Positions 3,007 to 34,774 of a stretch of DNA of 35,126 bases are shown here, piece by piece. Made by a program: the position numbers and the translations under genes. The stretch comes from a virus (lineage: Duplodnaviria; Heunggongvirae; Uroviricota; Caudoviricetes). The stretch is from the IMG/VR virus record IMGVR_UViG_2619619134_000012; one strand, given 5' to 3'. The notes beneath the pieces are model-generated. The model did not search any database, was not told the origin of the DNA, and was given only the letters and a program-made list of their open reading frames with translations. Position 1 is the first letter of the stretch; each line of letters starts with the position of its first letter.

Positions 3007-3488
3007 TGCAGCAACCCTCCAACAGTATTTTTAATATTACCTATCGCAGACGTTGCAGAGTCCTGCAGGTTACTGAGCTGATCGCTGAGACTGCCGAACA
3101 TATCAGACAGCGACTCATCAACCCTTTTCAGGGTCAGCGTAAACTCAATACGGCGAGGCATTCCGCTTTCAAAAAATTCCATTTTTGTCTGACTCAGGCT
3201 CTCGATTACAAACATGCCGTAAATGGTCCCGCTACCCTCAATCAGGGGCCATGCTTTGCCCAGCTCTGCCATTTGCTCCAGCGCGAGCAATGACAGCCTG
3301 CCCCCGGTGACTTCCGGCAGCAGTACGCCAGATAACGTCAGCGAGTCATTATCCGGGCCAAGAAACTGCGTTGATGGTCGCCGGTTCACCCGACTGTTGA
3401 CGGCGTGTCGCCAGCTTCGCTGATACTGCAGCTCCTGATATGGCACTGTGCGCAGCATGAAGACATATAACCCCAGCACCATCATCAT
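3003..3488 (-). CDS. U: Tail protein U
   Basis: 161-aa ORF at the P2 gpU position, translationally coupled to T and D. Confidence 0.8.
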   Translation of the reverse strand: MMMVLGLYVFMLRTVPYQELQYQRSWRHAVNSRVNRRPSTQFLGPDNDSLTLSGVLLPEVTGGRLSLLALEQMAELGKAWPLIEGSGTIYGMFVIESLSQTKMEFFESGMPRRIEFTLTLKRVDESLSDMFGSLSDQLSNLQDSATSAIGNIKNTVGGLLQ

Positions 3489-6268
3489 GATTCATATCCC
3501 CCTTGATCACTGAAATTACTGCGCGCTTTAGCCCTGGTCTTGCGCTCGCGTTCGTCAAGCTGTCGGGCAACTTCACGGGCAATATCTTGCGCACTCTGCC
3601 CTGGCTGAGCATAGATAGTGATCGGCGCGTGAGTTTCAAAGTGCATCACTGGCGGCGCGCTGGCAGATTTCGCAGGCTGGCTTTGTTTATATGCCACAGT
3701 AGGCAGACTGTAAGGATGTAGTGGAGCAGCCTCTGCAGGCGCTGCCGCTACGCCCATGACGCCTGCAACGACGGAAGCCAGCGCGGCAGTACGCCGCCTA
3801 CTGGTCACATGTGCGGGGCCGTTCACAATTTCAGGGCCGTTCTCCCCAACAATACCGAACTGACCGCGCGGAATAATCCCACCACTGTCATACATCCCGG
3901 CAAACGGAACCGCAGCAGCCGCTGCTTCACCAACCACCTGCACCTGTGCTTTATTTTGTGTTTTATTATTTCCGGTCATCCAGTCAGGCAGATAATCGGT
4001 GACTGAGGAAAGCTTGCTTTTGAGTGTCTCCCATTTGGCATTAATTCCATTGAGAATGCTGTCAATAATGGCGCTGCCCATGTCCTGAAACTTCGCAGGA
4101 AGCGCGGCAACATCAGCTAGGATCGAATTCCATTTATCACTAATAGATTGTCTGATATTGGCCCACGCCTCAGAAACGCCAGATTTTATTGCATCCCAAT
4201 TTTTAGCTATTAATCCCGGCAAGGTATAATTAAAGAACAGTGACTTAATCCCCTCCCACGCGGCGCTGGCCTTTTCTTTAATCCAATCCCATGCCGTACC
4301 TGTGGCATTACATACGGCATCCCACATGGCCTTGAACTTTGGCCCAAGCGTGTCCCAGTTCTGCCAGATATAAATAGCACCAGCGGCGATCAGCCCTATG
4401 ACAGCCAGTATAGGGTTTGCAAACATCAATCGGCCCAGCCATAAAACTGATTTCCCGATCCCTCCCAGCGCAGCACGAACCAAGCCACCCACCGATGCGA
4501 ACTTCAGGCCCAACATGCCCGCGCTCACTCTGATGATTGCCATCGGACCAAGGATTGATGCCAGCACCAAAGAGATAGCCCCTACAGCCGTTGCAGCAAC
4601 GGCAAATCCTGCAGCCATCTTGAATAAGGCAGACGTAAGCGAGGGATGGCGTTTGACAAAACCGTCCAAACGAGAGGCTAACTCCCCCAGCCAATCGGCG
4701 AGGTTCTTTAATGCAGGTGCTACGGTTTCACCAATACTCGCCATCGCATTAGTGAATGTCCCGGTAGCAGCCTCCCATTTATTCCCCAGGGTGTTCAGCG
4801 ATGCATCAACACGCTCCCTAAGCGATGCCTGATTTTCAAGCTTTGCTGCAGTTTCTCTATATCCTTCAATCCCTTTGGATAGCATAATGTTCAGCGCTTG
4901 TAGCGTTTCCGCATCATTGCCAAACAAATCTTTCATGGTTGCCATTTGGGTTTCTGGATTTAATTTTTTAAGTTTCTCCAGCTGAGCGTACATATTTTCC
5001 AGACCACCAAACCCACCCTTCCCGTCAGAGAAGTTGAATTTAATACCCGCGCCCTTTTCTTTCAGGTCATCGTTAACCGCCTTAATATTGTCAGCATCCA
5101 GAGCGGCCTGAAAAATCTTTCGGTATGCATTACCGGCAGACTCACCAGCCATACTCCCCTGATCAGCCATAACTAACAAAGGCGCGAAAGTTTTGACCGC
5201 TTCCAACCCCTTCTTATTGATGATATTCATCGCGCTGCTGATTTTTGAGAACCCCTGCAGCATATTTCCTGAATCTACCCCCGCGTAGAATCCTTTCTGG
5301 ATCACGTCCATCAGATTCATCATGTCTTTTTCGGAGGTCTGAGTAGCATCTTGTAACTTAGCCGCAAACTCAGCTGCTGCAGTGGGAGCCATCTGTAACT
5401 GCACGCCAAGATAAGCTGCTGACTCTCCCAAGCCGCCCAGGATGACCTGCGCCGACATACCCTGACGGCGTAGCATAGTCATCATGTTCTGAAAGTCGGC
5501 TGTTGTTCCCGGCAGCTTATCGCCCAAAGCAACTGCAAGCCGGTTAATTTTTTCAAATTCAGGCGCTACCTTTCCGCCCGGTCCCATCATTGAACCGGCG
5601 AGCTGATTCGCTGCATTTTCTGATTCTGAATAGGCTTTTACTGGAGCCAACAACGTCATGCCAGTAGTTACCCCAGCCGCCATCGCCCCTGCACCATTAC
5701 CTGCCAGAGAGTTCCTTAACTCGCGGGTCTTTTCAGCCTTGGCTTTGATGGCGTTGAGCTTTCGCTGACGCTCGCCAACTTCACGCAGCCTGCGCTCCTG
5801 CTCAGCCAACTGTCGGTTATACCGCTCAGTTTCTCGTGCAATCCGTGCCGTCTCACGCGCTCCGCCCCCAGCAGATAACCCCAGCCGATAAAGCTCAGCC
5901 CTGGCTGCCGCCATCTGGCGAGTTTCCTGTTGCTGTTTTTGTTCAAGACGTGAAACAGCACGCCACTGAGCTTCCAGCGCCTGCGTTTGTTTTTTTGTCG
6001 GGGATTCCAAAGATGACATTTCGCGCGTCATCATTTGAGCGCGTAGCCTCGCCTGATCCAGTTCGGCACCAGTACGGCTAACACTTTTAGTTAGTTGATC
6101 GAAAGATTTAAGCTGACCTCCAGCATCACTCAGCTTTTTAATCTGATCGCGGGTTTGTCGAATAGCTGATGCCAGCTCCTTAGAGCCAGCCTGTGCATTT
6201 TTAAATGGGCGGGTTAACTTATCCACCGCCCCCAGAACTACCTGCAGTCGCAAGTTATTATCACTCAT
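3485..6268 (-). CDS. T: Tail tape measure protein
   Basis: About 927 aa, coiled-coil-rich middle and hydrophobic segments typical of tape measure proteins; start placed at ATG 6268 (MSDNNLRLQ...) overlapping the E' stop; the ORF track's upstream start 6316 is less likely. Confidence 0.8.
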   Translation of the reverse strand: MSDNNLRLQVVLGAVDKLTRPFKNAQAGSKELASAIRQTRDQIKKLSDAGGQLKSFDQLTKSVSRTGAELDQARLRAQMMTREMSSLESPTKKQTQALEAQWRAVSRLEQKQQQETRQMAAARAELYRLGLSAGGGARETARIARETERYNRQLAEQERRLREVGERQRKLNAIKAKAEKTRELRNSLAGNGAGAMAAGVTTGMTLLAPVKAYSESENAANQLAGSMMGPGGKVAPEFEKINRLAVALGDKLPGTTADFQNMMTMLRRQGMSAQVILGGLGESAAYLGVQLQMAPTAAAEFAAKLQDATQTSEKDMMNLMDVIQKGFYAGVDSGNMLQGFSKISSAMNIINKKGLEAVKTFAPLLVMADQGSMAGESAGNAYRKIFQAALDADNIKAVNDDLKEKGAGIKFNFSDGKGGFGGLENMYAQLEKLKKLNPETQMATMKDLFGNDAETLQALNIMLSKGIEGYRETAAKLENQASLRERVDASLNTLGNKWEAATGTFTNAMASIGETVAPALKNLADWLGELASRLDGFVKRHPSLTSALFKMAAGFAVAATAVGAISLVLASILGPMAIIRVSAGMLGLKFASVGGLVRAALGGIGKSVLWLGRLMFANPILAVIGLIAAGAIYIWQNWDTLGPKFKAMWDAVCNATGTAWDWIKEKASAAWEGIKSLFFNYTLPGLIAKNWDAIKSGVSEAWANIRQSISDKWNSILADVAALPAKFQDMGSAIIDSILNGINAKWETLKSKLSSVTDYLPDWMTGNNKTQNKAQVQVVGEAAAAAVPFAGMYDSGGIIPRGQFGIVGENGPEIVNGPAHVTSRRRTAALASVVAGVMGVAAAPAEAAPLHPYSLPTVAYKQSQPAKSASAPPVMHFETHAPITIYAQPGQSAQDIAREVARQLDERERKTRAKARSNFSDQGGYES

Positions 6269-20582: not shown

Positions 20583-22349
20583 ATGAACACGACACTGATC
20601 CCCGCAGACCTCGATCCCCGTCGGCAGGCCATGCTGCTGTACTTTCAGGGATACCGCGTAGCCCGCATTGCTGAAATGCTGGGCGAGAAAGTTGCAACCG
20701 TTCACAGCTGGAAGAAGCGCGACAAGTGGGGCGACTATGGGCCGCTGGATCAGATGCAGCTCACCACCGCCGCACGTTACTGCCAGCTCATTATGAAGGA
20801 GCAGAAAGAAGGGAAAGACTTCAAGGAAATTGACCTGCTGGCGCGCCAGTCAGAGCGCCACGCCCGGATCGGTAAATTTAACGATGGCGGGAACGAAGCA
20901 GACTTAAACCCGAACGTTGCCAACCGTAACAAAGGGCCGCGCCGCCAGCCCGAAAAGAATGTTTTCACCGATGAACAGACCGAAAAGCTGGAAGAAATCT
21001 TCCGCAACGGCATGTTTGAATATCAGCGCCACTGGTGGCAGGCAGGCGTAAAACACCGCATTCGCAACCTGCTTAAATCACGTCAGATTGGGGCAACATA
21101 CTTTTTTGCCCGCGAAGCGCTGATTGATGCCATCACCACCGGGCGCAACCAGATCTTCCTCTCAGCCAGTAAGGCGCAGGCGCACGTCTTTAAGCAGTAC
21201 ATCATCGACTTTGCAAAAGAGGTGGATGTTGAGCTGAAAGGCGACCCGATGACGCTCAGCAACGGCGCGTGCCTGTACTTCCTCGGCACCAACGCCCGCA
21301 CGGCGCAGAGCTACCACGGCAATCTGTACCTTGATGAATATTTCTGGATACCGAAATTCCAGGAGCTGCGCAAGGTTGCCTCCGGTATGGCCATTCACAA
21401 GAAATGGCGACAAACCTACTTCTCCACGCCGTCCAGCCTGACCCACAGCGCCTATCCGTTCTGGTCCGGCGCGCTGTTTAACCGGGGCCGTGCCAAAGCG
21501 GACAAGGTGGATATTGACCTGACCCACAGCAACCTTGCGCGCGGCCTGCTCTGCCCTGACGGACAGTACCGCCAGATCGTCACCGTGGAGGATGCGGTGC
21601 GCGGCGGCTGTAACTTGTTCGACCTCGACCAGCTGCGCATGGAGTACAGCCCGGACGAATACCAGAACCTGCTGATGTGCGAATTTATTGACGATCTGGC
21701 GTCAGTATTCCCGCTCAGCGAACTGCAGGCGTGCATGGTGGACAGCTGGGAAGTCTGGACCGATTTTCATGCTCTGGCGCTGCGCCCGTTTGGCTGGCGC
21801 GAAGTCTGGATCGGATACGACCCGGCGAAAGGCACGCAGAACGGTGACAGCGCCGGGTGCGTGGTGGTGGCACCGCCAACCGTGCCAGGCGGCAAGTTCC
21901 GCATTCTGGAGCGACACCAGTGGCGCGGGATGGACTTCCGCGCCCAGGCTGACGCCATTAAAAAACTGACACAGCAGTACAACGTGACCTATATCGGCAT
22001 CGACTCGACCGGCGTCGGTCACGGTGTCTACGAGAACGTGAAAGCGTTCTTTCCTGCCGTGCGGGAGTTTGTCTACAACCCCAACGTCAAAAACGCCCTG
22101 GTGCTCAAGGCCTACGACATCATCAGCCACCGCCGTCTGGAGTTTGACGCCGGGCATACCGACATTGCGCAGTCCTTTATGGCTATCCGCCGGGCCACCA
22201 CCGCCAGCGGCAACCGCCCAACCTATGAAGCCAGCCGCAGCGAAGAAGCCAGCCACGCAGATTTGGCCTGGGCAACGATGCACGCACTGTTTAACGAACC
22301 GCTGCAGGGCGAGGCCGCCAATACCAGCAACATTGTGGAGATTTTCTGA
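20583..22349 (+). CDS. P: Terminase large subunit (ATPase plus nuclease)
   Basis: 588-aa ORF with a lambda-gpA-type deviant Walker A candidate KSRQIGAT, Walker B LYLDE and a C-terminal nuclease region (VWIGYDPAKG...IGIDSTGVGHG). Confidence 0.9.
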   Translation: MNTTLIPADLDPRRQAMLLYFQGYRVARIAEMLGEKVATVHSWKKRDKWGDYGPLDQMQLTTAARYCQLIMKEQKEGKDFKEIDLLARQSERHARIGKFNDGGNEADLNPNVANRNKGPRRQPEKNVFTDEQTEKLEEIFRNGMFEYQRHWWQAGVKHRIRNLLKSRQIGATYFFAREALIDAITTGRNQIFLSASKAQAHVFKQYIIDFAKEVDVELKGDPMTLSNGACLYFLGTNARTAQSYHGNLYLDEYFWIPKFQELRKVASGMAIHKKWRQTYFSTPSSLTHSAYPFWSGALFNRGRAKADKVDIDLTHSNLARGLLCPDGQYRQIVTVEDAVRGGCNLFDLDQLRMEYSPDEYQNLLMCEFIDDLASVFPLSELQACMVDSWEVWTDFHALALRPFGWREVWIGYDPAKGTQNGDSAGCVVVAPPTVPGGKFRILERHQWRGMDFRAQADAIKKLTQQYNVTYIGIDSTGVGHGVYENVKAFFPAVREFVYNPNVKNALVLKAYDIISHRRLEFDAGHTDIAQSFMAIRRATTASGNRPTYEASRSEEASHADLAWATMHALFNEPLQGEAANTSNIVEIF

Positions 22350-23074
22350 TGCACTCAACCCCAACTAACCTCATGACCACCGCCAGCCTGCCTGTAGATC
22401 GCCCTTTCTTTGCTTACCAGCATGAATGGAACAGCGGCGCACGCAGCAGAAACCGTGTGCTTACAAAAATGCGTCAGGCTGGCGCAGATTTCTTTTTCGC
22501 CTACGAAGCCCTGAACGATGCACTGCATACCGGACGCAACCAGATTTTTCTGGGCTGCACCCCGGCATCCGCCCTGACAGTCAAAACCTATATGTCAGCC
22601 TTTATAGATCAGGCTGCAGCCTGGACACACCTTGGAAAAATAAAATCAGGCAAAGCGCATCTGGAACTACCAAACGGTGCAGTCATTTATTTTATCGGGC
22701 CGGAAAGCCTCGCCGCCGCGCTCCATGGAAACGTCTACGTGTCAGAGTATGCCTGGGCGGACTCCCCGAAAAATATGATTGCGCTCGCCAAAAGCCTGTC
22801 CATGCACGCGCGCTATCACGCTACCTACTACACCACCCCAAGCCCCAGCCCGGAAGCATGGCGGGAATACAAGAAGCTGATTGCCCGCAACAGCACAACC
22901 AGCATGACCTTTACCGCTGATGACGCTGCAGCATCCGGGGCAACGCTCGCAACCGGAGCCGCGCTCTTTGATGATGAATGGCTGAATGACATGAAAAAAG
23001 AATTATCAGCAGCGGACTGGAGAATGTTGTTTATGTGCGAATGGCCCCAGTTTGACAAGGAGCAGATGGCATGA
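22349..23074 (+). CDS. Terminase-ATPase-domain-only paralogue (truncated, motif-degenerate terminase large-subunit-like protein)
   Basis: 241-aa ORF overlapping the P stop (TGATG) and the Q start (ATGA); aligns by eye with the ATPase core of the adjacent P protein (KMRQAGADFFFAYEALNDALHTGRNQIFL vs KSRQIGATYFFAREALIDAITTGRNQIFL; LFMCEW vs LLMCEF) but lacks the N-terminal and nuclease regions. Confidence 0.7.
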   Translation: MHSTPTNLMTTASLPVDRPFFAYQHEWNSGARSRNRVLTKMRQAGADFFFAYEALNDALHTGRNQIFLGCTPASALTVKTYMSAFIDQAAAWTHLGKIKSGKAHLELPNGAVIYFIGPESLAAALHGNVYVSEYAWADSPKNMIALAKSLSMHARYHATYYTTPSPSPEAWREYKKLIARNSTTSMTFTADDAAASGATLATGAALFDDEWLNDMKKELSAADWRMLFMCEWPQFDKEQMA

Positions 23075-24123
23075 GCAAACGCAAAAACCGGAATAACCGC
23101 GCAGCGGTAGATCACAAAGCTAAACCGCACGGTGATGCGGTGGCTGAGGCATTCAGCTTTGGCGACCCGGTGCCGGTGCTGGACCGGCGCGAGCTTCTGG
23201 ACTATGTGGAATGCGTGCAGATGGACCGCTGGTATGAGCCGCCGGTCAGCTTTGACGGGCTGGCGCGAACCTACCGCGCCGCCGTGCACCATAGCTCCCC
23301 GATTGCGGTTAAACGTGACATTCTCAGCAGTACGTACATCCCGCACCGCCTGCTCAGCCAGCAGGCTTTTGCCCGTTTCGTCCAGGATTATCTGGTGTTC
23401 GGTAACGCCTATCTGGAAAAGCGCACCAACCGGCTCGGCGGCGTTCTCTCACTGGAGCCAGCACTGGCGAAGTACACACGCCGTGGCGTGGACCTCGACA
23501 CCTACTGGTTTGTGCAGTACGGCCTGACCACGCAGCCCTATGATTTTACACAGGGCAACATTTTTCACCTGATGGAGCCGGATATTAACCAGGAGATTTA
23601 CGGGCTGCCCGGCTATCTCTCCGCCATTCCGTCAACCTTGCTCAACGAGTCCGCCACGCTGTTCCGCCGGAAGTATTACATCAACGGCAGCCACGCGGGT
23701 TTCATCATGTACATGACCGACGCAGCACAGAACCAGGAGGATGTGAACAATATCCGCCAGGCAATGAAAAGCGCCAAAGGACCTGGTAACTTCCGTAACC
23801 TGTTTATGTATTCACCCAACGGTAAAAAGGACGGCATCCAGATCATCCCGTTATCGGAGGTTGCTGCAAAGGATGAGTTTCTGAACATCAAGAACGTCAG
23901 CCGCGATGACATGATGGCAGCGCACCGCGTACCGCCACAGATGATGGGTATTATTCCCAACAATACCGGCGGCTTTGGTGATGTGGAAAAGGCCAGCCGT
24001 GTCTTTGTTCGCAACGAGCTGATGCCGCTGCAGAAGCGACTGCAGGAGCTTAACGACTGGCTGGGCGAAGAAGTGATCCGCTTTGAGCCTTACGACCTGG
24101 GTTTAAAAAGCAAGCGCAACTAA
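23071..24123 (+). CDS. Q: Portal protein
   Basis: 350-aa ORF with clear P2 gpQ similarity (FGDPVPVLDRRELLDYVEC...WYEPPVSFDGLA...AVHHSSPI...); AAGGAG ribosome-binding site. Confidence 0.9.
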   Translation: MSKRKNRNNRAAVDHKAKPHGDAVAEAFSFGDPVPVLDRRELLDYVECVQMDRWYEPPVSFDGLARTYRAAVHHSSPIAVKRDILSSTYIPHRLLSQQAFARFVQDYLVFGNAYLEKRTNRLGGVLSLEPALAKYTRRGVDLDTYWFVQYGLTTQPYDFTQGNIFHLMEPDINQEIYGLPGYLSAIPSTLLNESATLFRRKYYINGSHAGFIMYMTDAAQNQEDVNNIRQAMKSAKGPGNFRNLFMYSPNGKKDGIQIIPLSEVAAKDEFLNIKNVSRDDMMAAHRVPPQMMGIIPNNTGGFGDVEKASRVFVRNELMPLQKRLQELNDWLGEEVIRFEPYDLGLKSKRN

Positions 24124-24197: not shown

Positions 24198-24284
24198 GCT
24201 GCTGCTCCCTTTCCCTTAGAGATTGAATCCGCCAGCGTGCCTGATATTGTGCCGGATTTTCACCATTTCACCCCATTGCGCGCG

Positions 24285-24303
24285 CTCGTATCCCCGCCAC
24301 GCC
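24285..24303. other. Candidate cos (cohesive end) site
   Basis: Minus strand reads GGCGTGGCGGGGATACGAG, resembling the P2/186 cohesive-end sequences as I recall them (GGCG[A/T]GGCGGGGAAAGCA...); next to Q where cos lies in P2. Confidence 0.4.
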
Positions 24304-24345
24304 TGCCCGCTTTATGTAGTGGTTTTCATGCACCTGCATGAGACA

Positions 24346-24374
24346 GGCAAAAGCCCGCCAGTTCTGGCGGGCCT
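24346..24374 (-). terminator. Candidate terminator of the SOS cassette transcript
   Basis: Perfect GCCCGCCAG / CTGGCGGGC inverted repeat followed on the minus strand by TTTTG. Confidence 0.4.
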
Positions 24375-24438
24375 CAGCATAAACGATCCTTAAACGATCA
24401 TGCGTTTTCATGCGGCATAGTCATGCACTACGACGAAA

Positions 24439-24729
24439 TCAGTCAAACAGAGAATAATTTGCATCAAATTCATGACTTGTGGCTTCGACTTTCGTAATAA
24501 CTATCAAGTAACCAAGTCCATCAGATAAAGACACCGGATACTCCAGCTCAAGCCAGAAACAGTCATCATAAGTTCTTCCCATCCAGTATCCGCCGCCGCA
24601 CTCTTTTGGGCGTTGAAAGAAAACCCACTGACCTGGAATGATTGTTTCCAGCGTTTGACCGCGATATACAATTTGATACTTGTTGTCTTTAGACCCCATA
24701 GCTAACGCCTCGCATAGCTCGTTGTTCAA
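24439..24729 (-). CDS. Hypothetical protein (96 aa), last gene of the SOS cassette
   Basis: ORF in a lower-GC stretch 43 nt downstream of the DinI-like gene on the same strand; no family recognised. Confidence 0.5.
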   Translation of the reverse strand: MNNELCEALAMGSKDNKYQIVYRGQTLETIIPGQWVFFQRPKECGGGYWMGRTYDDCFWLELEYPVSLSDGLGYLIVITKVEATSHEFDANYSLFD

Positions 24730-24772
24730 CCTTGCGAGCGCCAGAACTACGTTCTGCCTCTCACAACGTTAT

Positions 24773-25006
24773 CTAATGTAACCAGCTGTCGTCCTCCCAG
24801 ACCTGCTGCATAATTTCCATCACTCGCTTTTTGTCTTCATCCAGTTTTAACCCGCTCAGTTCAACACCATTGGCACTGCCCTTACGGATACGAATTGCTG
24901 TTTTGGGATACAGAGGGCGCAAATTACGGTAAAGCTCGGATTCAAGGGCTTCCAGTGTGGCCTGGCTAATCTTCTGCTCTTTATCGATCATTATTTCAAT
25001 GCGCAT
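24773..25006 (-). CDS. DinI-family protein
   Basis: 77 aa (MRIEIMIDKEQKISQATLEALESELYRNLRPLYPKTAIRIRKGSANGVEL...KKRVMEIMQQVWEDDSW) with the DinI pattern MRIE...K...AL..EL.R...P...R...K.R..EI.Q..WE...W; own AGGGAA ribosome-binding site. Confidence 0.8.
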   Translation of the reverse strand: MRIEIMIDKEQKISQATLEALESELYRNLRPLYPKTAIRIRKGSANGVELSGLKLDEDKKRVMEIMQQVWEDDSWLH

Positions 25007-25017
25007 ACAGATTCCCT

Positions 25018-25206
25018 TTAACTGGTAACGTCCATTGACCGGCTGTATTCATGGCTGCGAATTTTCGCCATCAACTCGTCTGTCAGTTCGGACACCCACT
25101 GGATAGCCAGCCGCTTTTCTTCGTCGCTGCACTCACTAGCCGCTACAAGCTTGATAAAAAAATCAATACGCTGGAGCTTCAATGACTCCAAAAGATAGTC
25201 CTGCAT
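25018..25206 (-). CDS. Hypothetical small protein (62 aa), first gene downstream of the LexA box; possible Tum-like antirepressor component
   Basis: Start chosen at ATG 25206 (MQDYLLESLKLQRIDFFIKL...) because of a strong AGGAGG site 6 nt upstream; the longer track ORF (to 25383) would run through the promoter and LexA box. Confidence 0.5.
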   Translation of the reverse strand: MQDYLLESLKLQRIDFFIKLVAASECSDEEKRLAIQWVSELTDELMAKIRSHEYSRSMDVTS

Positions 25207-25254
25207 CTTCCCTCCTATCATTACACGGATACACAAGCACTGTATATATACCCA

Positions 25255-25270
25255 CTGTTTATATAAACAG
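25255..25270. promoter_or_regulatory. LexA box (SOS operator)
   Basis: CTGTTTATATAAACAG is a perfect CTGT-N8-ACAG palindrome with an AT-rich spacer, about 50 nt upstream of the 62-aa gene; a second, imperfect half-box (CTGTATATATACCCAC) starts at 25240. Confidence 0.6.
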
Positions 25271-25364
25271 TATAGTAGGAAAGAAAAAATGTAAAACTCT
25301 TTTTTGTCAGTTAATTGGATGTACTGACGCCAGTCAATAAAGCACGAAATGTTAAACAGCATCC

Positions 25365-27764
25365 TTAGTACCATTGACGCCATTTGTCATCTTCCTGCAG
25401 CCTCTGGTTACGGTAAAAAATACGTAAACCGGCACCGGATGGAATGCTGCCGCCACGCAGAAGCAAATCAATCTCAGATGCACTACCTTCAAACCCTCTG
25501 GCAGTCAGTTCTGCCTCAAGCTGCAGGCGCTGCTGCTCCGAAATACTCTGTATGTATGCTTTTTTCCGCTTCGGTTTTACCAGTCTCAACCTGGCTGTCA
25601 GCTCCCGCCGTTCCTTCTGGCCCATGTTGTGGAGATATTCCTGCAGCTCCTTCTCATCCATGGTTTTAATATCGGGTAAATCACCCCCTGATTTGTTCAG
25701 ATTTTCAACAGGGGGACAGTTATTGCCACGAGTCCAAGGGGCGCAAGCGCCCTGGTCGGCTGCCGCCTCCTGAACGTCAACGGCCTTACGAACCTTTTTC
25801 CACTTCATCGCGTGCGTGCAAATCTTGCCCTCTGCAATCGGGGACCAGATGCCATAGATACGGATACCGTGATCGCCGTAGGCGCTCGGTTCGTCGTTAA
25901 GCTCATAAGCAGTGCGGACAAGGTGATGTTTGCGGGGAACCAGTACACCGCCCTGCTTCATGATGTAGGTGGCAAAGCAACCCGCATCTGCAGCCGCCAG
26001 TACCGCATCCAGACGTGGATTATCCAGTACAGGCGCACCCGCTTTGCGTTCGCCCTGTACTCTCGCCGCCTGACCAGCCAGCAAGCGCAGCTCGCGGTAT
26101 GCCTGGCGCCCCGGAATACCAAAGAAACGAAATTGCTGGACACGGTGCAGTGACGCCCAGGCGCTGACATGCTCGGCGCTGTCACGCAGTGATCTGCCGG
26201 TTTCTTTGCTGATTTCTTTAGCCAGCCCGCGCCCGTCGATGTTCTTACTGATGTATTTGGCGATGTAGCTTGTCGGTGTGCCCTTGCGCGGGTTGATTAG
26301 CTCGGACTTGAAGCGCGGTCCGGTATTGGTGCCCAGCTCCTCGCGGTCTTCACGGATGGCAAACTTTCGCAGCAGCGCGGTGATGGAACGACGGTCTTTT
26401 TTGCGCATAAAGCACAGAAGATGCCAGTGCACAGTGCCGTCATGGTGCGGCTCTGCAACGCGGACGCCGTACCAGCGCAGCCCGGCTTTGTGCATGGCCT
26501 TGCGGAAAGCGGCGAATGTATCAACCAGATAGTCACTGCTCTGCCGGACCGTGGCGCTGGTCCATTTCGGATTAGGTCTGCCGTTGTTGAGGGTTGCGTG
26601 GAAGCGTGACGGGCAGGTGATGGTATAGAACACGGCGCAGTCTCCGCGCATTTCCGCGATCAGCTCCAGCCCTTTAACACAGGCCATCATTTCATTACGG
26701 CGGTGCGCCGGGTTGCTGTTGCTGGCGTTCACCACATCTTCCATATCCAGCGTGTCACCGTCTTCGTTGACCAGTTCATGCGAGCGGAAGAACTCCAGCG
26801 ATTTGCGGCGCTGCTCGCGTTTGTGGATCACGGCTTCATAGCTGACATACGGGGACGCTTTCTTGTTGACCAGGCAGACGGCGCGCAGCTGCCCCCCCCG
26901 CCACTCGCAGCGCATCTGCCACAATTTGCGATACCACCAGTCCGCGCACAGCATGCGAGCCAGCGACGGTGGGATCAGTTCATAAGGCACCGACTTGCGG
27001 CGGCGCTTTTTGCGGCGCAACTGCTCAAAGGCAGGCGGGATGACCTCAAGGCGCATGGCTTCTGCTGCAACCCTTTCCCATGCCTGGCGGATTTCTTCTG
27101 GTTTAACATCGTCACTGACAAACAGATCACTGCAGGCCGTATCAAGACACATGCTCATATGTGCCGCAACCAGCGTGGAAAGGCGCTTTACCTGCTCCTG
27201 ATTCATTTCAGGCAGTACCAGCAACCCCTCCAGCCCGTCCTGGATCGCCATGAACCGGAAAGACGCAGACACCTGGCTGTCACGCACGCGCTCCAGCCGC
27301 TCCAGACAAGGCCTGATTGTTTCGCGCAGATAGCGGGAATAAGCTTTAGCCCTGCCCAGGCTATGGAAGTATTTAATCCGCTCCAGCAAAGGCTTGCTGA
27401 TATGGGCAGGCATGGCGCTAACATCGGCAATAATCACCAAATCGGGATTAACGCGCTGCTGTTCGCGGGCCATTTTGGCATGGCTAATCAGCCGATCCTG
27501 CTCCATTTCACGCTGGACAGGATCGCGGGATTCATTAAAGAAATAGAGTTCCCAAACCTCATCACTCAGCGCCTCACGGCGCAGATGCTCCTGCTCGTTA
27601 TCCGCAGCATACAGAGTGATGAGGTTTGAAAGCGCAGACTCCGGCGCAACGTCCGCCGGTTCCAGATACGGATTAACCGCTTTTTTTGTGGTATTCCATG
27701 GAAAGGCTGCGGCGGCCTCATTCGAGCCGCCGGTCGCCGCCATTTCGAAGCTGGTCAACTTCAC
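25365..27764 (-). CDS. A: Replication initiation protein A (rolling-circle nickase)
   Basis: 799-aa ORF with P2 gpA-type motifs ([22 protein letters not shown]; [12 protein letters not shown]); exact start uncertain. Confidence 0.85.
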
Positions 27765-27816: not shown

Positions 27817-28761
27817 TTAAGGCGTTTCCGTAGGTTCGAATTCGTCCCACTCTGGAGGCAGCCCCATTAACCAAAGGCTCAAGGCCGGATTTAACTGGCC
27901 TCCATTTTCCATCTGTGCATTTGAGCCAGTCAGCATCTTTCCAGAAGCCGTTAACCGGACCGGGCCTGCAATCTGTGCCACCACATCCAGACGATCTGTC
28001 GATATTTTCCCTTTGCGAATCCTCCCCCCAGGATCCCCCCCCCCTTGTGGTCGCTGGCTGTTGGCGTGGGCCAGCCAGCCATTTTTACCTGTTGCGCAAG
28101 GCTGCTGCCGGACATGCCCTCGGTAATCCCTCGCCCTCCCCGCCTGCTGTCGCTGGCACTCGGAGTTGTCCAGCCCGAAAGCTGCGCAGCTGTCTGCAAG
28201 TTCAATCCTCCCTGACGGCCCGCGTTGCTGGGATGCTTCCAGGCATTCGCTGTTGGTGTGGACCACCCAATAAGTTCTGTCCCGGATGTTCGGGGCACCG
28301 ACGCTCGCAGCCGGAAACGCACTCGCCCCGAAGGCATAACCCAAGGCTTCCACGTCAGTCTGTACAAGGTCGATCCAGTCATTTGCGTCAGCACTTGCAG
28401 ATTGCTCGCCAAAGACAACGACAGGGCGACGCTGCCCGACCAACCAATGCATGGCGGGCCATAAGTGCCGCTCGTCAGCAAACCCTTTTCCTTTGCCTGC
28501 CGCGCTGAAAGGCTGGCATGGGCAGGAACCTGTCCAGACTTCTCTGCTGTCTTCCCAGCCCACACGGCGCAGGGCATATGACCAAATGCCAACCCCTGCA
28601 AAGAAATGGACCTGAGCAAATCCTCGTAAATCATCGGGTCTGACATCTTCAATACTCCTTTCATCTACAACACCCGGCATAATGCGACCGGCAGCCATGT
28701 GTACGCGCAGCCGCGCAGCTGCAAACGGGTCTATCTCGTTGTAATAAGCCCACGCACTCAC
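27817..28761 (-). CDS. DNA (cytosine-5) methyltransferase-like protein; coding frame ambiguous (possible frameshift or phase-variable gene)
   Basis: Frame starting at GTG 28761 carries C5-methyltransferase motifs I ([12 protein letters not shown]), IV ([15 protein letters not shown]), VIII ([13 protein letters not shown]) and a motif IX-like C-terminus ([19 protein letters not shown]); an overlapping second frame and a G10 tract complicate the call. Confidence 0.45.
27951..28664 (-). other. Alternative-frame ORF (237 aa) fully overlapping the methyltransferase-like gene, with three tandem GW[STP]TP[TS]A repeats
   Basis: Open across about 700 nt in a second frame; tandem repeat units start near 28279, 28175 and 28077 (period about 100 nt); passes through the G10 tract. 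Confidence 0.3.
28035..28044. repeat. Homopolymer tract C10 (G10 on the coding strand) inside the methyltransferase-like gene
   Basis: Plus strand ...GGATCCCCCCCCCCTTGTGG...; a second C6 run lies at 28024-28029. Confidence 0.9.
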
Positions 28762-29615
28762 GCCTGCACCTCATACTTAACGCAGCAATCAGGACCGCCA
28801 GCAGGATCAAAACCAATCCAGTGATGAGGTTTAGAAGTAGCGATGATTTCCACGGCGGACTTACCATCACCGGCAGCCACACCCATGCTGCGCTTTGCCG
28901 TCAGCCGATAGCGGGAGAAATTGCGATAAAGAGAACGGGTCAAAGATGTATCACTGTTGGACACAATGACCGGATGACCTTCTGATGAACGACGCTCAAG
29001 AATAGACGCCAGATGATACTGATCATCCTCAGTAAATCCGGCGGTGTGATAACCGGTAAACGTTCCGTCATATGGCGGATCGCAATAAACCACATCACCA
29101 GTCTTCAGCAGTGCCAGTGTTTCCTCATAGCTGGCACAGATAAACGTTGCACGTTGTGCCTTTTCTGCAAAAGCGCGTATTTCGTTTTCGGGGAAGTACG
29201 GATTTTTATAATTACCGTAAGGAACATTAAAGTGACCACTCAAGTTATAGCGGCACAGTCCGCGATAACAATGGCGATTAAGATAAATAAACATGGCTGC
29301 GCGGCAATCCACAGGCCAATCACGTCCATGGTTAAATTCTTTTCGAATATCGTAGTAATCCTCTGCCGATTTATTTTTAGCAAATAAATCCTTGCCAATT
29401 GAGATTAATAATTCAGGTCCGCTTTTAATGGCATTGTAAAGACTTATCAGATCTGGATTAATATCCGCGACAAGATAATGAGGATAGTCTGTCTCCATCA
29501 TCACAGCGCACGAACCCGCGAAAGGCTCAACCAGTCGCGGGCCTGCTGGAAGGTGTTTTTTCAGTTCTGGCATTATGGCGGTTTTATTACCCGCCCATTT
29601 CAGGATGGTGCTCAT
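28758..29615 (-). CDS. DNA adenine (N6) methyltransferase, Dam/D12 class
   Basis: Start at ATG 29615 ([18 protein letters not shown]...); motifs KWAGNK, FAGSCAV and DPPY; stop overlaps the start of the cytosine methyltransferase-like gene. Confidence 0.85.
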
Positions 29616-29839
29616 ACAGCCCCCCCTACGTAATGTTTGCCTTTCAGCTCTGCGATTTCCTGACAGGTGACGCAACACTGCACGCCCGGAATAGCGCGGC
29701 GGCGAGCTGGCGGGATCGGTGCATCGCAATCAATGCAGAGCACACGGGAAACGCCCGGTGTTCTGTTGCGGGCGGTGTGGATGTGGCGCTGACGTTCTTC
29801 TTCAACGCGCTGCTGTACAAGGTCCATTGAATCAGCCAT
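29612..29839 (-). CDS. TraR/DksA-family C4 zinc-finger protein
   Basis: 75 aa with CIDCDAPIP...CCVTCQ, a Cys4 arrangement typical of phage TraR-like proteins. Confidence 0.7.
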   Translation of the reverse strand: MADSMDLVQQRVEEERQRHIHTARNRTPGVSRVLCIDCDAPIPPARRRAIPGVQCCVTCQEIAELKGKHYVGGAV

Positions 29840-32190: not shown

Positions 32191-33216
32191 ATGACCATCA
32201 GAAAACAGCCGAACGGAAAATGGTTGTGCGAGTGTTACCCGAACGGGCGTGACGGTAAGCGCGTGCGCAAGCAATTTGCGACAAAGGGCGAGGCTGTAGC
32301 ATTCGAAAACTTCACCATGGATGAAGTGAACAAAAAGCCGTGGCTGGGTGAAAAGGAAGATCGGCGGCGTTTGTCAGAATTGATTGAGCAGTGGCATTCA
32401 CTTTATGGGCAGACGCTGGCTGACCCCAAACGCCTTATGGCAAAACTCAGCATTATTTGTAATGGCCTTGGTGATCCCATCGCCTCAGAGTTAACCGCAG
32501 GCGATTTTACGAAATACCGGGAAGCACGTCTAAAAGGTGAAGTAAAAAATGAAGATGGCGTGCTTATGTCGCCAGTTAAACCCCGCACGGTAAACCTTGA
32601 GCAACGCAACCTATCCTCTGTTTTTGGCACGCTGAAAAAGCTGGGCCATTGGTCAGCCCCAAACCCGCTAGCCGGTCTGCCAACATTCAAAATTGCCGAA
32701 GGTGAATTGGCGTTCCTAGCCCCGGAAGAAATTAAACGCCTGCTGGATTCCTGTGCTGAATCTCAAAGCCCCAGCTTACTGATGATTGCAAAAGTATGCC
32801 TAGCCACTGGTGCACGATGGAGTGAAGCAGAAAACCTACAAGGACACCAGCTGTCGAAATATCGCATCACCTACACCAAGACCAAAGGCAAGAAAAACAG
32901 AACCGTGCCAATATCACAAGATCTGTATGACGAACTACCCAAGAACAGAGGGAAGTTATTCACGCCATGTAGAAAAGCCTTTGAGCGCGCAGTGAAGCGG
33001 GCCGGAATCGATCTGCCAGAGGGTCAATGTACTCATGTGCTGCGCCATACATTCGCCAGCCATTTTATGATGAACGGCGGAAACATACTGGTGCTGCGCG
33101 ATATTCTAGGCCATGCCGATATAAAAATGACAATGGTATATGCTCACTTTGCACCCGATCACCTCGAAGATGCAGTGACAAAAAACCCGCTTCACAATCT
33201 CAACTGGAAGCGCTAA
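32191..33216 (+). CDS. int: Tyrosine integrase of the prophage
   Basis: 341 aa with the C-terminal catalytic region HVLRHTFASHFMMNGGNILVLRDILGHADIKMTMVYAH; adjacent to the right att repeat. Confidence 0.9.
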   Translation: MTIRKQPNGKWLCECYPNGRDGKRVRKQFATKGEAVAFENFTMDEVNKKPWLGEKEDRRRLSELIEQWHSLYGQTLADPKRLMAKLSIICNGLGDPIASELTAGDFTKYREARLKGEVKNEDGVLMSPVKPRTVNLEQRNLSSVFGTLKKLGHWSAPNPLAGLPTFKIAEGELAFLAPEEIKRLLDSCAESQSPSLLMIAKVCLATGARWSEAENLQGHQLSKYRITYTKTKGKKNRTVPISQDLYDELPKNRGKLFTPCRKAFERAVKRAGIDLPEGQCTHVLRHTFASHFMMNGGNILVLRDILGHADIKMTMVYAHFAPDHLEDAVTKNPLHNLNWKR

Positions 33217-33379: not shown

Positions 33380-33412
33380 TTTTTGATATATTGAAGTTCA
33401 GTGAAGTCTATC

Positions 33413-33447
33413 AAGCCCGCATGGAACCAGCCTTGCGGGCTTTTTTA
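33413..33447 (+). terminator. Rho-independent terminator after the displaced ssrA 3' fragment (probably the ancestral ssrA terminator)
   Basis: GCCCGCA ... TGCGGGC stem followed by TTTTTT. Confidence 0.55.
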
Positions 33448-33544
33448 CGTCTATAGTAGTCTACCGAGAATTGCTAGAATCTACTCGTTATGGCACCCTT
33501 TTTGGGACCCAACACAAAGGGTCCAAAACATGAGGGTCCCAAAC

Positions 33545-34774
33545 ATGGCAAAAATCGCTAAGAAGCTCACTGACACTGAAATCAAAAGCACCAAACCTGC
33601 CGAGAAAGAGGTTAACCTTTTTGACGGCGATGGTTTGCTCCTGCGAATCGCCCCCTTAGCGAAGGGAGGAAAGAAAAATTGGTATTTCAGATATGCAGTG
33701 CCTGTGACCAAAAAGCGAACTAAGGTGAGCTTAGGAACCTATCCTCACCTTACACTTGCGAAGGCACGAGCTTTACGTGATGAGTACTTGTCGTTGCTTG
33801 CAAATGGTATAGACCCACAAGTTCATAACACCCACAAAGCCAATGCCCTTAAGGATGCAACGGAACATACATTTCAAGCAGTAGCCAAGAAGTGGCTTGA
33901 TGAGAAAGTCAAAACGTCAGGCATCTCCCAGGATCATGCTAACGACATCTGGCGAAGCCTAGAGAGAAATATCTTTCCAACGTTGGGTGATACCCCCATT
34001 AAGGAGATTCGCCCTAAAATGCTTAAACAGCATTTAGACCCCATAGAAAAACGAGGTGTCCTTGAAACACTTCGCCGCGTCATATCCCGCCTGAATGAAA
34101 TTTTCCGCTATGCAGCAACAGAAGAACTCATAGAATTCAATCCGGCTGACAACCTGGGGCAACGGTTCAGCAAGCCAAAAAAACAGAATATGCCAGCATT
34201 ACCCCCTTCCGAACTCCCCCGCTTCCTGGTTGCTCTAAACAATGCTTCTATCCGTTTAGAAACAAGGCTACTGATTGAGTGGCAACTTCTCACATGGGTT
34301 CGCCCTGGTGAAGCTGTTCGCACAAGATGGTCAGATATTGATATAGAAACCAGCATGTGGAACATCCCGGCGGAGTTTATGAAAATGAAGAAGCCTCACA
34401 AAGTTCCACTGAGCAAAGAATCTTTGCGAGTCTTGGATTCAATGAAAGCCATCAGCGGGCATAGAGAGTGGGTTTTTCCCAGTATCAAAGCTCCACTCAA
34501 TCACATGCATGAACAAACAGCTAATGCGGCTATAATCCGTATGGGCTTCGGAGGTGAGCTTGTAGCTCATGGTATGCGATCAATCGCTAGAACGGCGGCT
34601 GAGGAGTGTGGCAAGTTTAGAACTGATGTCTTAGAAGCCGCCCTTGCCCACTCGAAAAAAGATGAAATAATTGCAGCCTACAATCGTGCAGAGTATCTCA
34701 CAGAACGTGTGGTTCTCATGCAATGGTGGAGTGACTATGTTTCGTCTCAAAAATACAAAGTTATTGCCGCATAA
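33545..34774 (+). CDS. P4/CP4-57-family tyrosine integrase of a second, tandem integrative element
   Basis: Start at MAKIAKKLTDTEIKSTKPAEKEVNLFDGDGLLLRIAPL..., clearly related to E. coli CP4-57 IntA (LTDTEIK, DGDGL, DIWRSLER, HGMRSIA, LAH); sits directly 3' of the ssrA-derived repeat. Confidence 0.85.
   Translation: MAKIAKKLTDTEIKSTKPAEKEVNLFDGDGLLLRIAPLAKGGKKNWYFRYAVPVTKKRTKVSLGTYPHLTLAKARALRDEYLSLLANGIDPQVHNTHKANALKDATEHTFQAVAKKWLDEKVKTSGISQDHANDIWRSLERNIFPTLGDTPIKEIRPKMLKQHLDPIEKRGVLETLRRVISRLNEIFRYAATEELIEFNPADNLGQRFSKPKKQNMPALPPSELPRFLVALNNASIRLETRLLIEWQLLTWVRPGEAVRTRWSDIDIETSMWNIPAEFMKMKKPHKVPLSKESLRVLDSMKAISGHREWVFPSIKAPLNHMHEQTANAAIIRMGFGGELVAHGMRSIARTAAEECGKFRTDVLEAALAHSKKDEIIAAYNRAEYLTERVVLMQWWSDYVSSQKYKVIAA

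What the first reader, a model, noticed from the sequence alone, without database searches (positions are those of the whole stretch)
24439..24729. Unrecognised 96-aa gene at the P2 tin/old-equivalent position
The last gene of the SOS cassette lies in a lower-GC stretch at the locus where P2 carries its phage-exclusion genes tin and old. I cannot assign it to any family from its sequence. Its location and apparent SOS co-regulation make it a candidate accessory function such as exclusion, anti-defence or induction modulation.
Basis: inference. Interest (0 to 1): 0.45.

Follow-up and report, generated by a model that had tools for sequence, protein, structure and literature searches.

The report
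SOS-controlled small phage gene, function unknown
The flagged ORF is a real, strongly conserved 86-residue phage gene of unknown function that sits behind a LexA (DNA-damage) operator in nearly every temperate phage carrying it, and its conserved C-terminal peptide resembles the motif proteins use to dock on the bacterial sliding clamp.

Summary
The ORF is real, but it most likely starts at the ATG at 24699 (86 aa), not at the TTG at 24729 (96 aa). It belongs to PHROG 2100, an uncharacterised family. It has no Pfam, NCBIfam, PADLOC or PDB match. A confident AlphaFold model matches no solved or viral fold. It is under strong purifying selection (dN/dS 0.05-0.19).

In this window the gene is the third cistron of a LexA-boxed tumA-dinI operon. 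In P2-type (C/Cox) phages, P22-like and other lambdoid phages, and SSU5, homologues carry their own promoter. That promoter has a perfect CTGT-N8-ACAG box 32-40 nt before the ATG.

It is not tin/old-type cargo. It sits at a fixed position on the gene-A side of the variable gpA-gpQ slot. That slot is empty here and holds AbiL or NsnA-like systems in relatives.

The exposed, conserved tail (NYSLF-D here; QLPLF or QxxLPF in homologues) resembles the beta-clamp-binding motif QL[SD]LF. It resembles the SSB tip DDDIPF less well.

My best guess is an SOS-induced protein that docks on a host replication hub. Confidence in this is modest, and the function is untested.

The parts
25255..25296 (-). SOS promoter and operator of the cassette. 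It has a -35-like TTTACA, a -10-like TATACT and the LexA box CTGTTTATATAAACAG (25255-25270).
   Evidence: The box was found: 2 matches in the window against 0.29 expected. The sequence was read. The equivalent box lies 564-602 nt upstream of the orf86 ATG in 52 of 56 type-(a) loci. The promoter hexamers are my own reading, and the spacing is 15-16 nt. The consensus scan did not call this promoter.
25018..25209 (-). First cistron: a 63-aa TumA-like ORF with a strong RBS (AGGAGGG).
   Evidence: It matches PHROG 698 at E 1.5e-36 over its full length. Fels-2 and PSP3 have tum split into an upstream antirepressor gene and a downstream DinI homologue (PMC3121763). The Fels-2 record names its DinI gene as similar to PSP3 TumB.
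24773..25006 (-). Second cistron: a 77-aa DinI homologue (TumB-like).
   Evidence: Pfam PF06183 at E 6.8e-24. PHROG 189 at E 9.7e-30, matching profile positions 71-148 of 151, which is the C-terminal half of a Tum-sized profile.
24731..24772 (-). Intergenic hairpin between dinI and orf86, with no U-tract.
   Evidence: Folding 24700-24775(-) gives -29.2 kcal/mol, z -3.5. Relatives carry different sequences at this place (L020, L006). That these also pair into hairpins is my reading. They were not folded.
24701..24730 (-). Conserved 30-nt element GTTGAACAACGAGnnnnGCGAGGCGTTAGC.
   Evidence: It is present upstream of orf86 in both P2-like architectures. It is also present in Yersinia phage MLG42, which lacks orf86. 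In type-(b) loci about 60 nt carrying a promoter and LexA box separate it from the ATG.
24439..24699 (-). orf86: an 86-aa acidic protein (pI 4.6) of PHROG 2100, stop codon included.
   Evidence: dN/dS against relatives is 0.05-0.19.
24442..24468 (-). Codons for the conserved C-terminal tail FDANYSLFD (residues 78-86). NYSLF is encoded at 24445-24459.
   Evidence: In the AlphaFold model the tail is coil after helix 58-77, with pLDDT about 61. Column conservation is F78 0.82, D79 0.71, L84 0.94 and F85 0.65, against a mean of 0.46 for the helix.
24349..24373 (-). Intrinsic-terminator-like hairpin (GGCCCGCCA-GAAC-UGGCGGGC followed by UUUU) that closes the cassette.
   Evidence: Folding gives -23.3 kcal/mol, z -3.3, and 0 of 200 shuffles fold as well. 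The consensus scan did not call it on the minus strand.
24285..24303 (-). cos-like 19-mer GGCGTGGCGGGGATACGAG.
   Evidence: The sequence was read. The resemblance to the P2 and 186 cohesive ends is from my memory and was not tested. Its distance of about 165 nt from the portal stop at 24123 fits the P2 layout.

Best explanation
SHOWN:
- orf86 (24439-24699, minus strand) is a genuine gene under purifying selection. It encodes a small acidic protein of an uncharacterised, mainly enterobacterial temperate-phage family (PHROG 2100).
- In nearly every genomic setting examined (78 of 89 loci) the family sits behind an exact LexA operator. Here it does so as the third cistron of the tumA-dinI SOS operon.
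- It sits next to the P2 defence hotspot but is not part of that hotspot's variable cargo.

INFERRED:
- It is made only when the lysogen suffers DNA damage, and it acts on a conserved host component rather than on a phage repressor.
- Most likely mechanism: a compact beta-sheet-plus-helix domain presents a flexible, conserved C-terminal peptide that resembles a clamp-binding motif. The peptide is ...EFDANYSLFD here, and QLPLF-COOH or QxxLPF-COOH in diverged homologues.
- That peptide would insert into the hydrophobic cleft of the beta sliding clamp (DnaN). There it would compete with Pol III, Hda and the SOS translesion polymerases.
- The outcome would be to slow or re-programme replication and mutagenesis in the SOS-induced cell. 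This would complement the neighbouring DinI, which acts on RecA.
For: Real gene:
- PHROG 2100 match at E 4.9e-41.
- 63 cluster representatives at 90% identity and 113 at 50% identity. Nearly all are short stand-alone proteins of about 31-128 aa. The two long exceptions match only through short repeated stretches.
- dN/dS is 0.05-0.19.

SOS control:
- 52 of 56 tumA-dinI-orf86 loci have CTGT-N8-ACAG ahead of tumA.
- 19 P2-like loci without the usual tumA-dinI operon directly upstream have their own box 34-40 nt before the ATG. One of the 19, L071, has a DinI match 143 nt upstream.
- SSU5, P22-like SE1, Serratia BZS1, Cronobacter ENT47670 and a lambda-like prophage carrying the distant subfamily all have a TTGAC -35, a -10 and a perfect box 32-37 nt before the ATG.
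- Chance expectation for the box is 0.29 per 35 kb.

Host-directed rather than repressor-directed:
- The same protein (50-100% identical, with the invariant core WVFFQRPKECGGGYW) occurs in phages with 186-type CI (this window) and P2-type C/Cox. It also occurs in P22-like/lambdoid phages and in SSU5, whose repressors I did not examine.

Tail:
- The model has pLDDT 83.8. Residues 78-86 are coil at about 61, yet they are more conserved than the preceding helix.
- 50 of 83 full-length members end in [ND][YFL][SPT]LF(D).
- Other members end in QLPLF, QIPLF, QMPLF or Q-x-x-L-P-F-COOH. Q is at position -6 in every 'LPF' member.
- 0 of 1876 unrelated ORFs from the same loci end this way.
- The published clamp-binding consensus is QL[SD]LF, usually C-terminal (PMC9690074). 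In phage Mu Mor, DLF alone is functional and L-to-A abolishes the effect (PMC12867686).

The protein is acidic (pI 4.6), so it is unlikely to bind DNA itself.
Against: - No binding or expression data exist.
- The motif in this window's protein is degenerate: N for Q, Y for L, and an extra C-terminal D.
- 21 of 83 members end in DDDFxL[T/E/S/V]. These lack the terminal aromatic residue and make poor clamp motifs.
- The acidic run (E/D)FDDD is closer to the SSB tip DFDDDIPF than to any clamp motif.
- Short linear motifs are easy to over-read.
- A hairpin between dinI and orf86 could attenuate read-through, so co-transcription in this window is inferred and not shown.
Confidence: 0.35

Rival explanations
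1. SSB-tail mimic. The acidic C-terminal peptide imitates the SSB C-terminal tip. It would compete with SSB for its client proteins (ExoI, RecQ, RecJ, PriA, RecO, chi, Pol IV). The effect would be to alter processing of single-stranded DNA, and so the SOS signal or phage DNA survival.
For: - Many members carry (M)(D/E)FDDD followed by hydrophobic-x-hydrophobic, for example P0057 'MDFDDDFQLT' and P0056 'EFDDDFTLF'.
- The distant roughly 100-aa subfamily ends exactly in [E/G]LPF-COOH.
- The SSB-Ct motif is DDDIPF (PMC5872125).
- An SOS-timed protein would act when SSB-coated ssDNA is abundant.
Against: - The window protein and 19 of the other 49 members of its tail class carry a residue after the Phe. 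From my own knowledge, SSB-Ct recognition uses the free carboxylate of the terminal Phe.
- Most members lack the Pro.
- The invariant Q at -6 in the LPF subfamily has no counterpart in SSB, but it is the hallmark of clamp motifs.
Confidence: 0.15
2. Antirepressor or induction trigger. Like Tum, AntC or GfoA, the LexA-controlled small protein would bind a prophage repressor and start lytic development. That could include otherwise non-inducible P2-type phages.
For: - Known LexA-controlled small prophage proteins are mostly antirepressors (PMC3121763).
- In P2-type (C/Cox) relatives orf86 is the only LexA-boxed gene found in the gpA-portal interval, where 186 has tum.
Against: - This window already has a TumA-like first cistron.
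- The protein is highly conserved across phages whose repressors differ: a 99-aa P2-type C and a 210-aa 186-type CI. It also occurs in lambdoid phages and SSU5.
- Antirepressors normally co-vary with their repressor.
Confidence: 0.1
3. Phage-exclusion or anti-defence gene of the tin/old hotspot. This includes an SOS-timed weapon against co-resident prophages that induce at the same moment.
For: - It lies in the gpA-gpQ hotspot (PMC9122126).
- 19% of P2-like phages lack recognisable defence genes and carry unknown genes there. In the P4 hotspot, 6 of 8 tested unknown-gene loci proved defensive (PMC13586616).
- It is small and acidic, like many anti-defence proteins.
Against: - No PADLOC hit.
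- Its position is fixed, and real defence systems sit downstream of it in relatives.
- It also lies in the lambdoid early-left region and in SSU5.
- LexA repression would keep it off in an unstressed lysogen, and during ordinary infection it would also stay off.
Confidence: 0.12
4. SOS-induced growth or division inhibitor acting on another target such as FtsZ or RecA. Alternatively the conserved tail is merely a degradation tag or a self-association element.
For: - Prophage and host SOS genes include small division inhibitors and short-lived proteins (my own knowledge: SulA, SfiC, UmuD).
- The orphan fold leaves the target open.
Against: - There is no membrane segment and no similarity to known inhibitors.
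- The tail pattern is not a known ClpX or Lon tag (my own knowledge).
- Nothing points specifically to this reading.
Confidence: 0.13

Closest known systems
DinI (host, and the prophage copy encoded next door at 24773-25006)
   Same: It is a small, acidic, LexA-controlled protein carried by many prophages. It acts on a host SOS component (RecA) rather than on the phage. Here it is in the same operon as orf86.
Tum of coliphage 186; split TumA/TumB of PSP3 and Fels-2; the Gifsy dinI-antirepressor-irsA operon
   Same: All are LexA-boxed operons of small genes in temperate enterobacterial phages. The 186, PSP3 and Fels-2 operons lie downstream of gene A. A third gene of unknown role (irsA in Gifsy, orf86 here) rides with DinI (PMC3121763).
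   Different: orf86 is a separate family from the TumA-like ORF (PHROG 2100 against PHROG 698). It occurs with phages that have different repressors. A tblastn search of the phage collection with orf86 returned no record with Gifsy in its name. IrsA itself was not compared directly.
P2 Tin and Old (phage-exclusion genes of the gpA-gpQ hotspot)
   Same: Same interval of the P2-like genome (PMC9122126).
   Different: orf86 has no defence-profile hit and is only 86 aa. It holds a fixed flank position with separate cargo downstream in relatives. It is LexA-repressed rather than constitutively expressed, which is inferred.
Phage Mu MuC and Mor; Caulobacter toxin SocB; E. coli Pol II, Pol IV and UmuC (proteins that dock on the beta clamp through QL[SD]LF-type motifs)
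   Same: All have a terminal short motif with invariant Leu and usually Phe. Mor works with only DLF (PMC12867686). SocB blocks replication by occupying the cleft (PMC9690074). The translesion polymerases are SOS-induced.
   Different: orf86 has no DNA-binding or catalytic domain. Its motif is degenerate in this window (NYSLF-D), and binding is untested.
SSB C-terminal tip (DDDIPF)
   Same: It is an acidic run followed by a hydrophobic C-terminus on a flexible tail. Some homologues share DFDDD or end in LPF-COOH (PMC5872125).

Membership tests
PHROG 2100 (uncharacterised phage protein family) | Full-length match to the 85-position family profile | tested here: met
   E 4.9e-41, with residues 11-94 of the 96-aa ORF matching profile positions 1-84 of 85. 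A profile search of 1.84 billion representatives finds 113 relatives, nearly all short stand-alone proteins.
LexA (SOS) regulon genes | CTGT-N8-ACAG operator overlapping or next to the promoter that drives the gene | tested here: met
   The box is at 25255-25270, ahead of the operon. The box is conserved in 52 of 56 operon-type loci. It lies 32-40 nt before the ATG in 21 stand-alone loci, plus L087-L089, L094 and L095.
LexA (SOS) regulon genes | LexA binding and damage-inducible transcription in vivo, with co-transcription across the dinI-orf86 junction | not testable with these tools
   No expression data were found. An intergenic hairpin without a U-tract leaves the extent of read-through open.
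P2 Tin/Old-type exclusion or other known defence systems | Homology to a known defence protein | tested here: not met
   No PADLOC, Pfam or NCBIfam hit at E up to 1.
P2 Tin/Old-type exclusion or other known defence systems | Belongs to the variable cargo of the gpA-gpQ slot | tested here: not met
   Its position is constant. The distance from the orf86 stop to the portal stop ranges from 303 to 4219 nt among 76 loci. AbiLi/AbiLii and NsnA-like genes lie downstream of it. In MLG42 the gene is precisely absent between the same flanks.
Beta-clamp-binding proteins | QL[SD]LF-like penta- or hexapeptide in an exposed terminal segment | tested here: inconclusive
   The window protein has NYSLF, matching 3 of 5 consensus positions, followed by D. 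It lies in a coil tail of low pLDDT. Homologues carry QLPLF, QIPLF, QMPLF or QxxLPF. 21 of 83 members have the poor variant DDDFxL[TESV].
Beta-clamp-binding proteins | Physical binding to the DnaN cleft | not testable with these tools
SSB-Ct mimics | Acidic run ending in [I/L]-P-F with a free carboxylate | tested here: not met
   The window protein ends in ...EFDANYSLFD. The feature is met only in the distant roughly 100-aa subfamily, which ends in ELPF or GLPF.
Tum-type antirepressors | Homology to the Tum N-terminal half or TumA | tested here: not met
   The TumA-like ORF is the separate first cistron (PHROG 698). orf86 hits only PHROG 2100.
DinI family | PF06183 domain | tested here: not met
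   orf86 has no Pfam hit. The neighbouring ORF carries PF06183.

The most novel reading that the evidence does not exclude
orf86 would define a new class of autonomous, LexA-switched phage cassette whose product plugs the beta sliding clamp (or another replisome hub) through a C-terminal mimic peptide. It would be a phage-encoded SOS 'checkpoint' that halts or re-directs host replication and translesion synthesis at the moment of DNA damage. At least four temperate-phage lineages carry it, including classically non-inducible P2-type prophages. In those it could serve as a weapon or a brake in competition between co-resident prophages.
Probability: 0.2. Interest if true: 0.75.

Novelty: new variant of a known kind. 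Interest (0 to 1): 0.5.

Why it matters
LexA-controlled prophage genes decide what happens to a lysogen in the minutes after DNA damage. So far essentially only antirepressors and DinI homologues have been characterised.

This family is a third such module:
- It is widespread. The exact sequence alone is on 397 contigs, and related forms occur in Salmonella, Citrobacter, Klebsiella, Enterobacter, Cronobacter, Serratia, Erwinia and E. coli.
- It is portable. It carries its own operator and promoter.
- It is also kept by P2-type prophages, which are not thought to respond to SOS.

If its tail really targets the sliding clamp or SSB clients, it would be a compact natural inhibitor of a validated antibacterial target. 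It would also be a new way for phages to tune mutagenesis and replication during induction.

It also matters for annotation. Surveys of the P2 gpA-gpQ hotspot that count every unknown gene there as candidate defence would misclassify this flank-resident SOS gene.

Tried and rejected
- Pfam, NCBIfam and PADLOC scans of orf86 gave nothing at E up to 1.
- A Pfam scan of ten distant family members gave nothing meaningful.
- A profile search against PDB sequences gave best E 0.1 on short stretches.
- Foldseek against PDB (best E 0.22) and against BFVD (best E 0.06) gave nothing.
- The afdb50 library was not available.
- A literature search for core-motif strings, 'phrog_2100' and 'SSU5_103' found 0 papers.
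- Searches on phage proteins that bind the clamp or mimic the SSB tail found no description of this family.
- I recalled that UmuD binds the clamp through TFPLF, which is close to the NFPLF ending of some homologues. I could not find this in the papers held, so it stays a memory-based lead.
- The 96-aa TTG start was rejected.
- 'Not a gene' was rejected on dN/dS and conservation.
- 'Cognate antirepressor' was down-weighted after finding the gene with both P2-type C and 186-type CI immunity regions.
- The LF82 prophage paper (Cartapus carries a homologue) has no data on this gene.

Full report
OBSERVATION. The ORF reported at 24439-24729 on the minus strand exists: 96 aa from a TTG. It lies in a stretch of 42-49% GC between flanks of 55-61%.

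The coding start should be moved to the ATG at 24699, giving 86 aa. Four points support this:
- The PHROG 2100 profile aligns from residue 11.
- Most of the 63 cluster representatives found are 84-86 aa, and every homologue in alignment A1 begins MG, MA or MS.
- A GAGG lies 8 nt upstream of the ATG.
- In relatives that have an insertion between the TTG and the ATG, the TTG frame runs into a stop (L064).

ANATOMY IN THE WINDOW. The window is a 186/Fels-2-type P2-like prophage. It has a CI repressor, an Apl/Cox-like gene, CII, integrase, gpA at 25365-27764 and a portal gene at 23071-24123.

Downstream of gpA, on the minus strand, the features run in this order:
- a promoter-like region with a perfect LexA box, CTGTTTATATAAACAG, at 25255-25270;
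- a 63-aa ORF with a strong ribosome-binding site (PHROG 698), corresponding to the split-tum upstream gene of PSP3 and Fels-2 (PMC3121763);
- a DinI homologue (PF06183);
- a hairpin without a U-tract, then a conserved 30-nt element that supplies the ribosome-binding site;
- orf86;
- a GC-rich hairpin followed by UUUU at 24349-24373 (-23.3 kcal/mol, z -3.3);
- a cos-like 19-mer. Its resemblance to the P2 and 186 cohesive ends is from memory.

The consensus scan called no sigma-70-like promoter on the minus strand between the LexA promoter and orf86. That scan also missed the LexA promoter itself, so this is weak evidence. orf86 is therefore most simply the third cistron of the SOS operon. Co-transcription is inferred, not shown.

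IS IT A REAL GENE? Yes.
- An exhaustive profile search finds 113 representatives at 50% identity. Nearly all are short stand-alone proteins of about 31-128 aa. The two long exceptions match only through short repeated stretches.
- Twelve columns are invariant in alignment A1, and the core reads WVFFQRPKECGGGYWLGRTYDD.
- Pairwise dN/dS against the window copy is 0.05-0.19.

SOS CONTROL IS A PROPERTY OF THE FAMILY, NOT OF THIS OPERON. I examined 84 loci with a homologue (80 IMG/VR loci plus phage records).
- 56 have the window's architecture, with a constant 73-79 nt between dinI and the ATG. Of these, 52 have an exact CTGT-N8-ACAG box 564-602 nt upstream, ahead of tumA.
- 19 P2-like loci lack the usual tumA-dinI operon directly upstream. 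One of them, L071, has a DinI match 143 nt upstream. They carry their own perfect box 34-40 nt before the ATG.
- One such phage was walked to its immunity region. It has the 99-aa P2-type C repressor and Cox. From established knowledge of P2, that immunity type is not SOS-inducible.

Outside the P2 group, the homologue has a TTGAC-type -35, a -10 and a perfect LexA box 32-37 nt before its ATG in each of these:
- the phage-plasmid SSU5;
- P22-like SE1;
- Serratia phage BZS1;
- Cronobacter phage ENT47670;
- a lambda-like prophage that carries the most distant subfamily.

The box is expected 0.29 times per 35 kb by chance.

The window's arrangement looks like a stand-alone cassette that lost its roughly 60-nt promoter/operator segment on joining the tumA-dinI operon. 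The same 30-nt element precedes the promoter in stand-alone loci and abuts the ATG here.

RELATION TO THE TIN/OLD HOTSPOT. But orf86 is not the variable cargo.
- Across 76 loci the distance from its stop to the portal stop ranges from 303 to 4219 nt.
- Where DNA is inserted, it lies downstream of orf86 and encodes recognisable systems. These are AbiLi/AbiLii in Klebsiella phage ST13-OXA48phi12.1 and an NsnA-like protein in L064.
- In the window the distance is 316 nt, so the slot is empty.
- Yersinia phage MLG42 has the same flanks joined directly without orf86. The gene is therefore a discrete presence/absence module.
- In lambdoid phages the cassette sits in the early-left region between the recombination genes and xis-int.

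The tail is more conserved than the helix before it. F78 is 0.82, D79 0.71, L84 0.94 and F85 0.65, against a helix mean of 0.46. That is the signature of a short linear motif.

The tails fall into three classes:
- 50 of 83 full-length members, including the window's protein, end in [N/D]-[Y/F/L]-[S/P/T]-L-F, with or without one more residue.
- 21 of 83 end in DDDFxL[T/E/S/V].
- Diverged members end in QLPLF, QIPLF, QMPLF or QMQLF. The roughly 100-aa subfamily always ends in Q-x-x-L-P-F-COOH.

None of 1876 unrelated ORFs from the same loci ends in such a pattern.

MECHANISM. The bacterial clamp-binding consensus is QL[SD]LF, typically C-terminal (PMC9690074). In phage Mu, MuC (QHDLF and QPDLF) and Mor (only DLF) bind the clamp functionally, and L-to-A abolishes the effect (PMC12867686).

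The family's invariant Leu, frequent terminal Phe, Ser or Pro at position 3 and recurrent Gln fit this motif. I therefore favour an SOS-induced protein that docks on DnaN and competes with other clamp clients. One coherent reading pairs it with DinI to restrain replication or translesion synthesis while the cell is in SOS. This step is inference only, and I give it about 0.3-0.35.

The acidic run (D/E)FDDD and the LPF-COOH endings also recall the SSB tip DDDIPF (PMC5872125). This rival is weakened by the extra residue after Phe in many members, by the missing Pro, and by the conserved Gln.

A cognate-antirepressor role is unlikely. The same protein travels with a P2-type C repressor and with a 186-type CI repressor, and it also occurs in lambdoid phages and SSU5. 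This window already has a TumA-like gene as well.

Exclusion or anti-defence cannot be excluded. It fits poorly with LexA repression, with the fixed flank position and with the absence of any defence-profile hit.

NOVELTY AND VERDICT. The kind of gene is known: LexA-controlled prophage accessory genes that modulate the damaged host, such as DinI and Tum. This family, its orphan fold, its portable operator-promoter-gene unit and its hub-motif-like tail have not been described in any source I could search. It is rare in E. coli, matching in 72 of 5426 complete genomes. Named homologues also come from Citrobacter, Salmonella, Enterobacter, Cronobacter, Klebsiella, Serratia and Erwinia, among others.

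I rate it a new variant of a known kind, of moderate interest. The SOS layer is solid and the biochemical mechanism is open.

LIMITS. There are no expression or interaction data. Complex prediction with host proteins was not possible with the tools. The afdb50 library was unavailable. The promoter hexamers, the cos assignment and the UmuD TFPLF comparison rest on my own reading or memory.

Noticed in passing
window 24268-24411 (-): This 47-aa ORF matches PHROG 28685 (E 9.9e-28). It spans the terminator hairpin (24349-24373) and the cos-like 19-mer (24285-24303). The 'family' probably reflects conserved cos-proximal DNA rather than a protein.
   Followed up: partly
window 24701-24730 (-); also L005, L001, L006, L064 and others: A 30-nt element, GTTGAACAACGAGnnnnGCGAGGCGTTAGC, is conserved in P2-like phages whether or not orf86 follows. 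It supplies the RBS here and apparently the -35 region (TTAGCA) of the stand-alone promoter elsewhere. Its own function, perhaps as a recombination boundary of the module, is unknown.
   Followed up: partly
window 24731-24772 (-); L020 and L006 at the equivalent place: There is a strong hairpin between dinI and orf86 with no U-tract. Relatives have different sequences at the same place. They look to me as if they also pair, but they were not folded. It may be an attenuator, an RNA-processing site or a stabiliser. It would set the ratio of DinI to orf86 expression.
   Followed up: partly
L064/L097 (IMGVR_UViG_2506520035_000001) and 18 similar loci: P2-like prophages without the tumA-dinI operon carry a perfectly LexA-boxed stand-alone orf86. 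The one contig that was walked (L064/L097) has P2-type C/Cox immunity, which is classically non-inducible. This implies an SOS-responsive function in a prophage that is not expected to induce.
   Followed up: partly
window 22349-23074 (+): A 241-aa ORF lies between the 588-aa terminase gene and the portal gene. It matches the C-terminal two-thirds of a terminase-large-subunit profile (PHROG 3746, positions 123-370 of 374). It is an extra, partial terminase-like gene that P2 does not have at this place.
   Followed up: no
window 27817-28761 and 28758-29729 (-): Two adjacent, overlapping DNA methyltransferase genes (PHROG 363 and PHROG 56) lie directly upstream of gpA.
   Followed up: no
window 33401-34774 (+): A second, 457-aa integrase-family gene lies just beyond the prophage integrase at 32191-33216. 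It may belong to a neighbouring integrated element at the same attachment region.
   Followed up: no
window 24898-24913: A second CTGT-N8-ACAG match lies inside the dinI coding sequence, CTGTTTTGGGATACAG on the plus strand. It recurs in close relatives. Its spacer contains a GGG run. It is probably a coding-sequence coincidence rather than an operator.
   Followed up: no
L003 (SSU5) 3353-5339; L002 (SE1) 3512-3862; L095 3786-4133: In SSU5 and the lambdoid phages, further small genes of unknown function follow the LexA-boxed orf86 homologue in the same direction. They might form a longer SOS operon.
   Followed up: no
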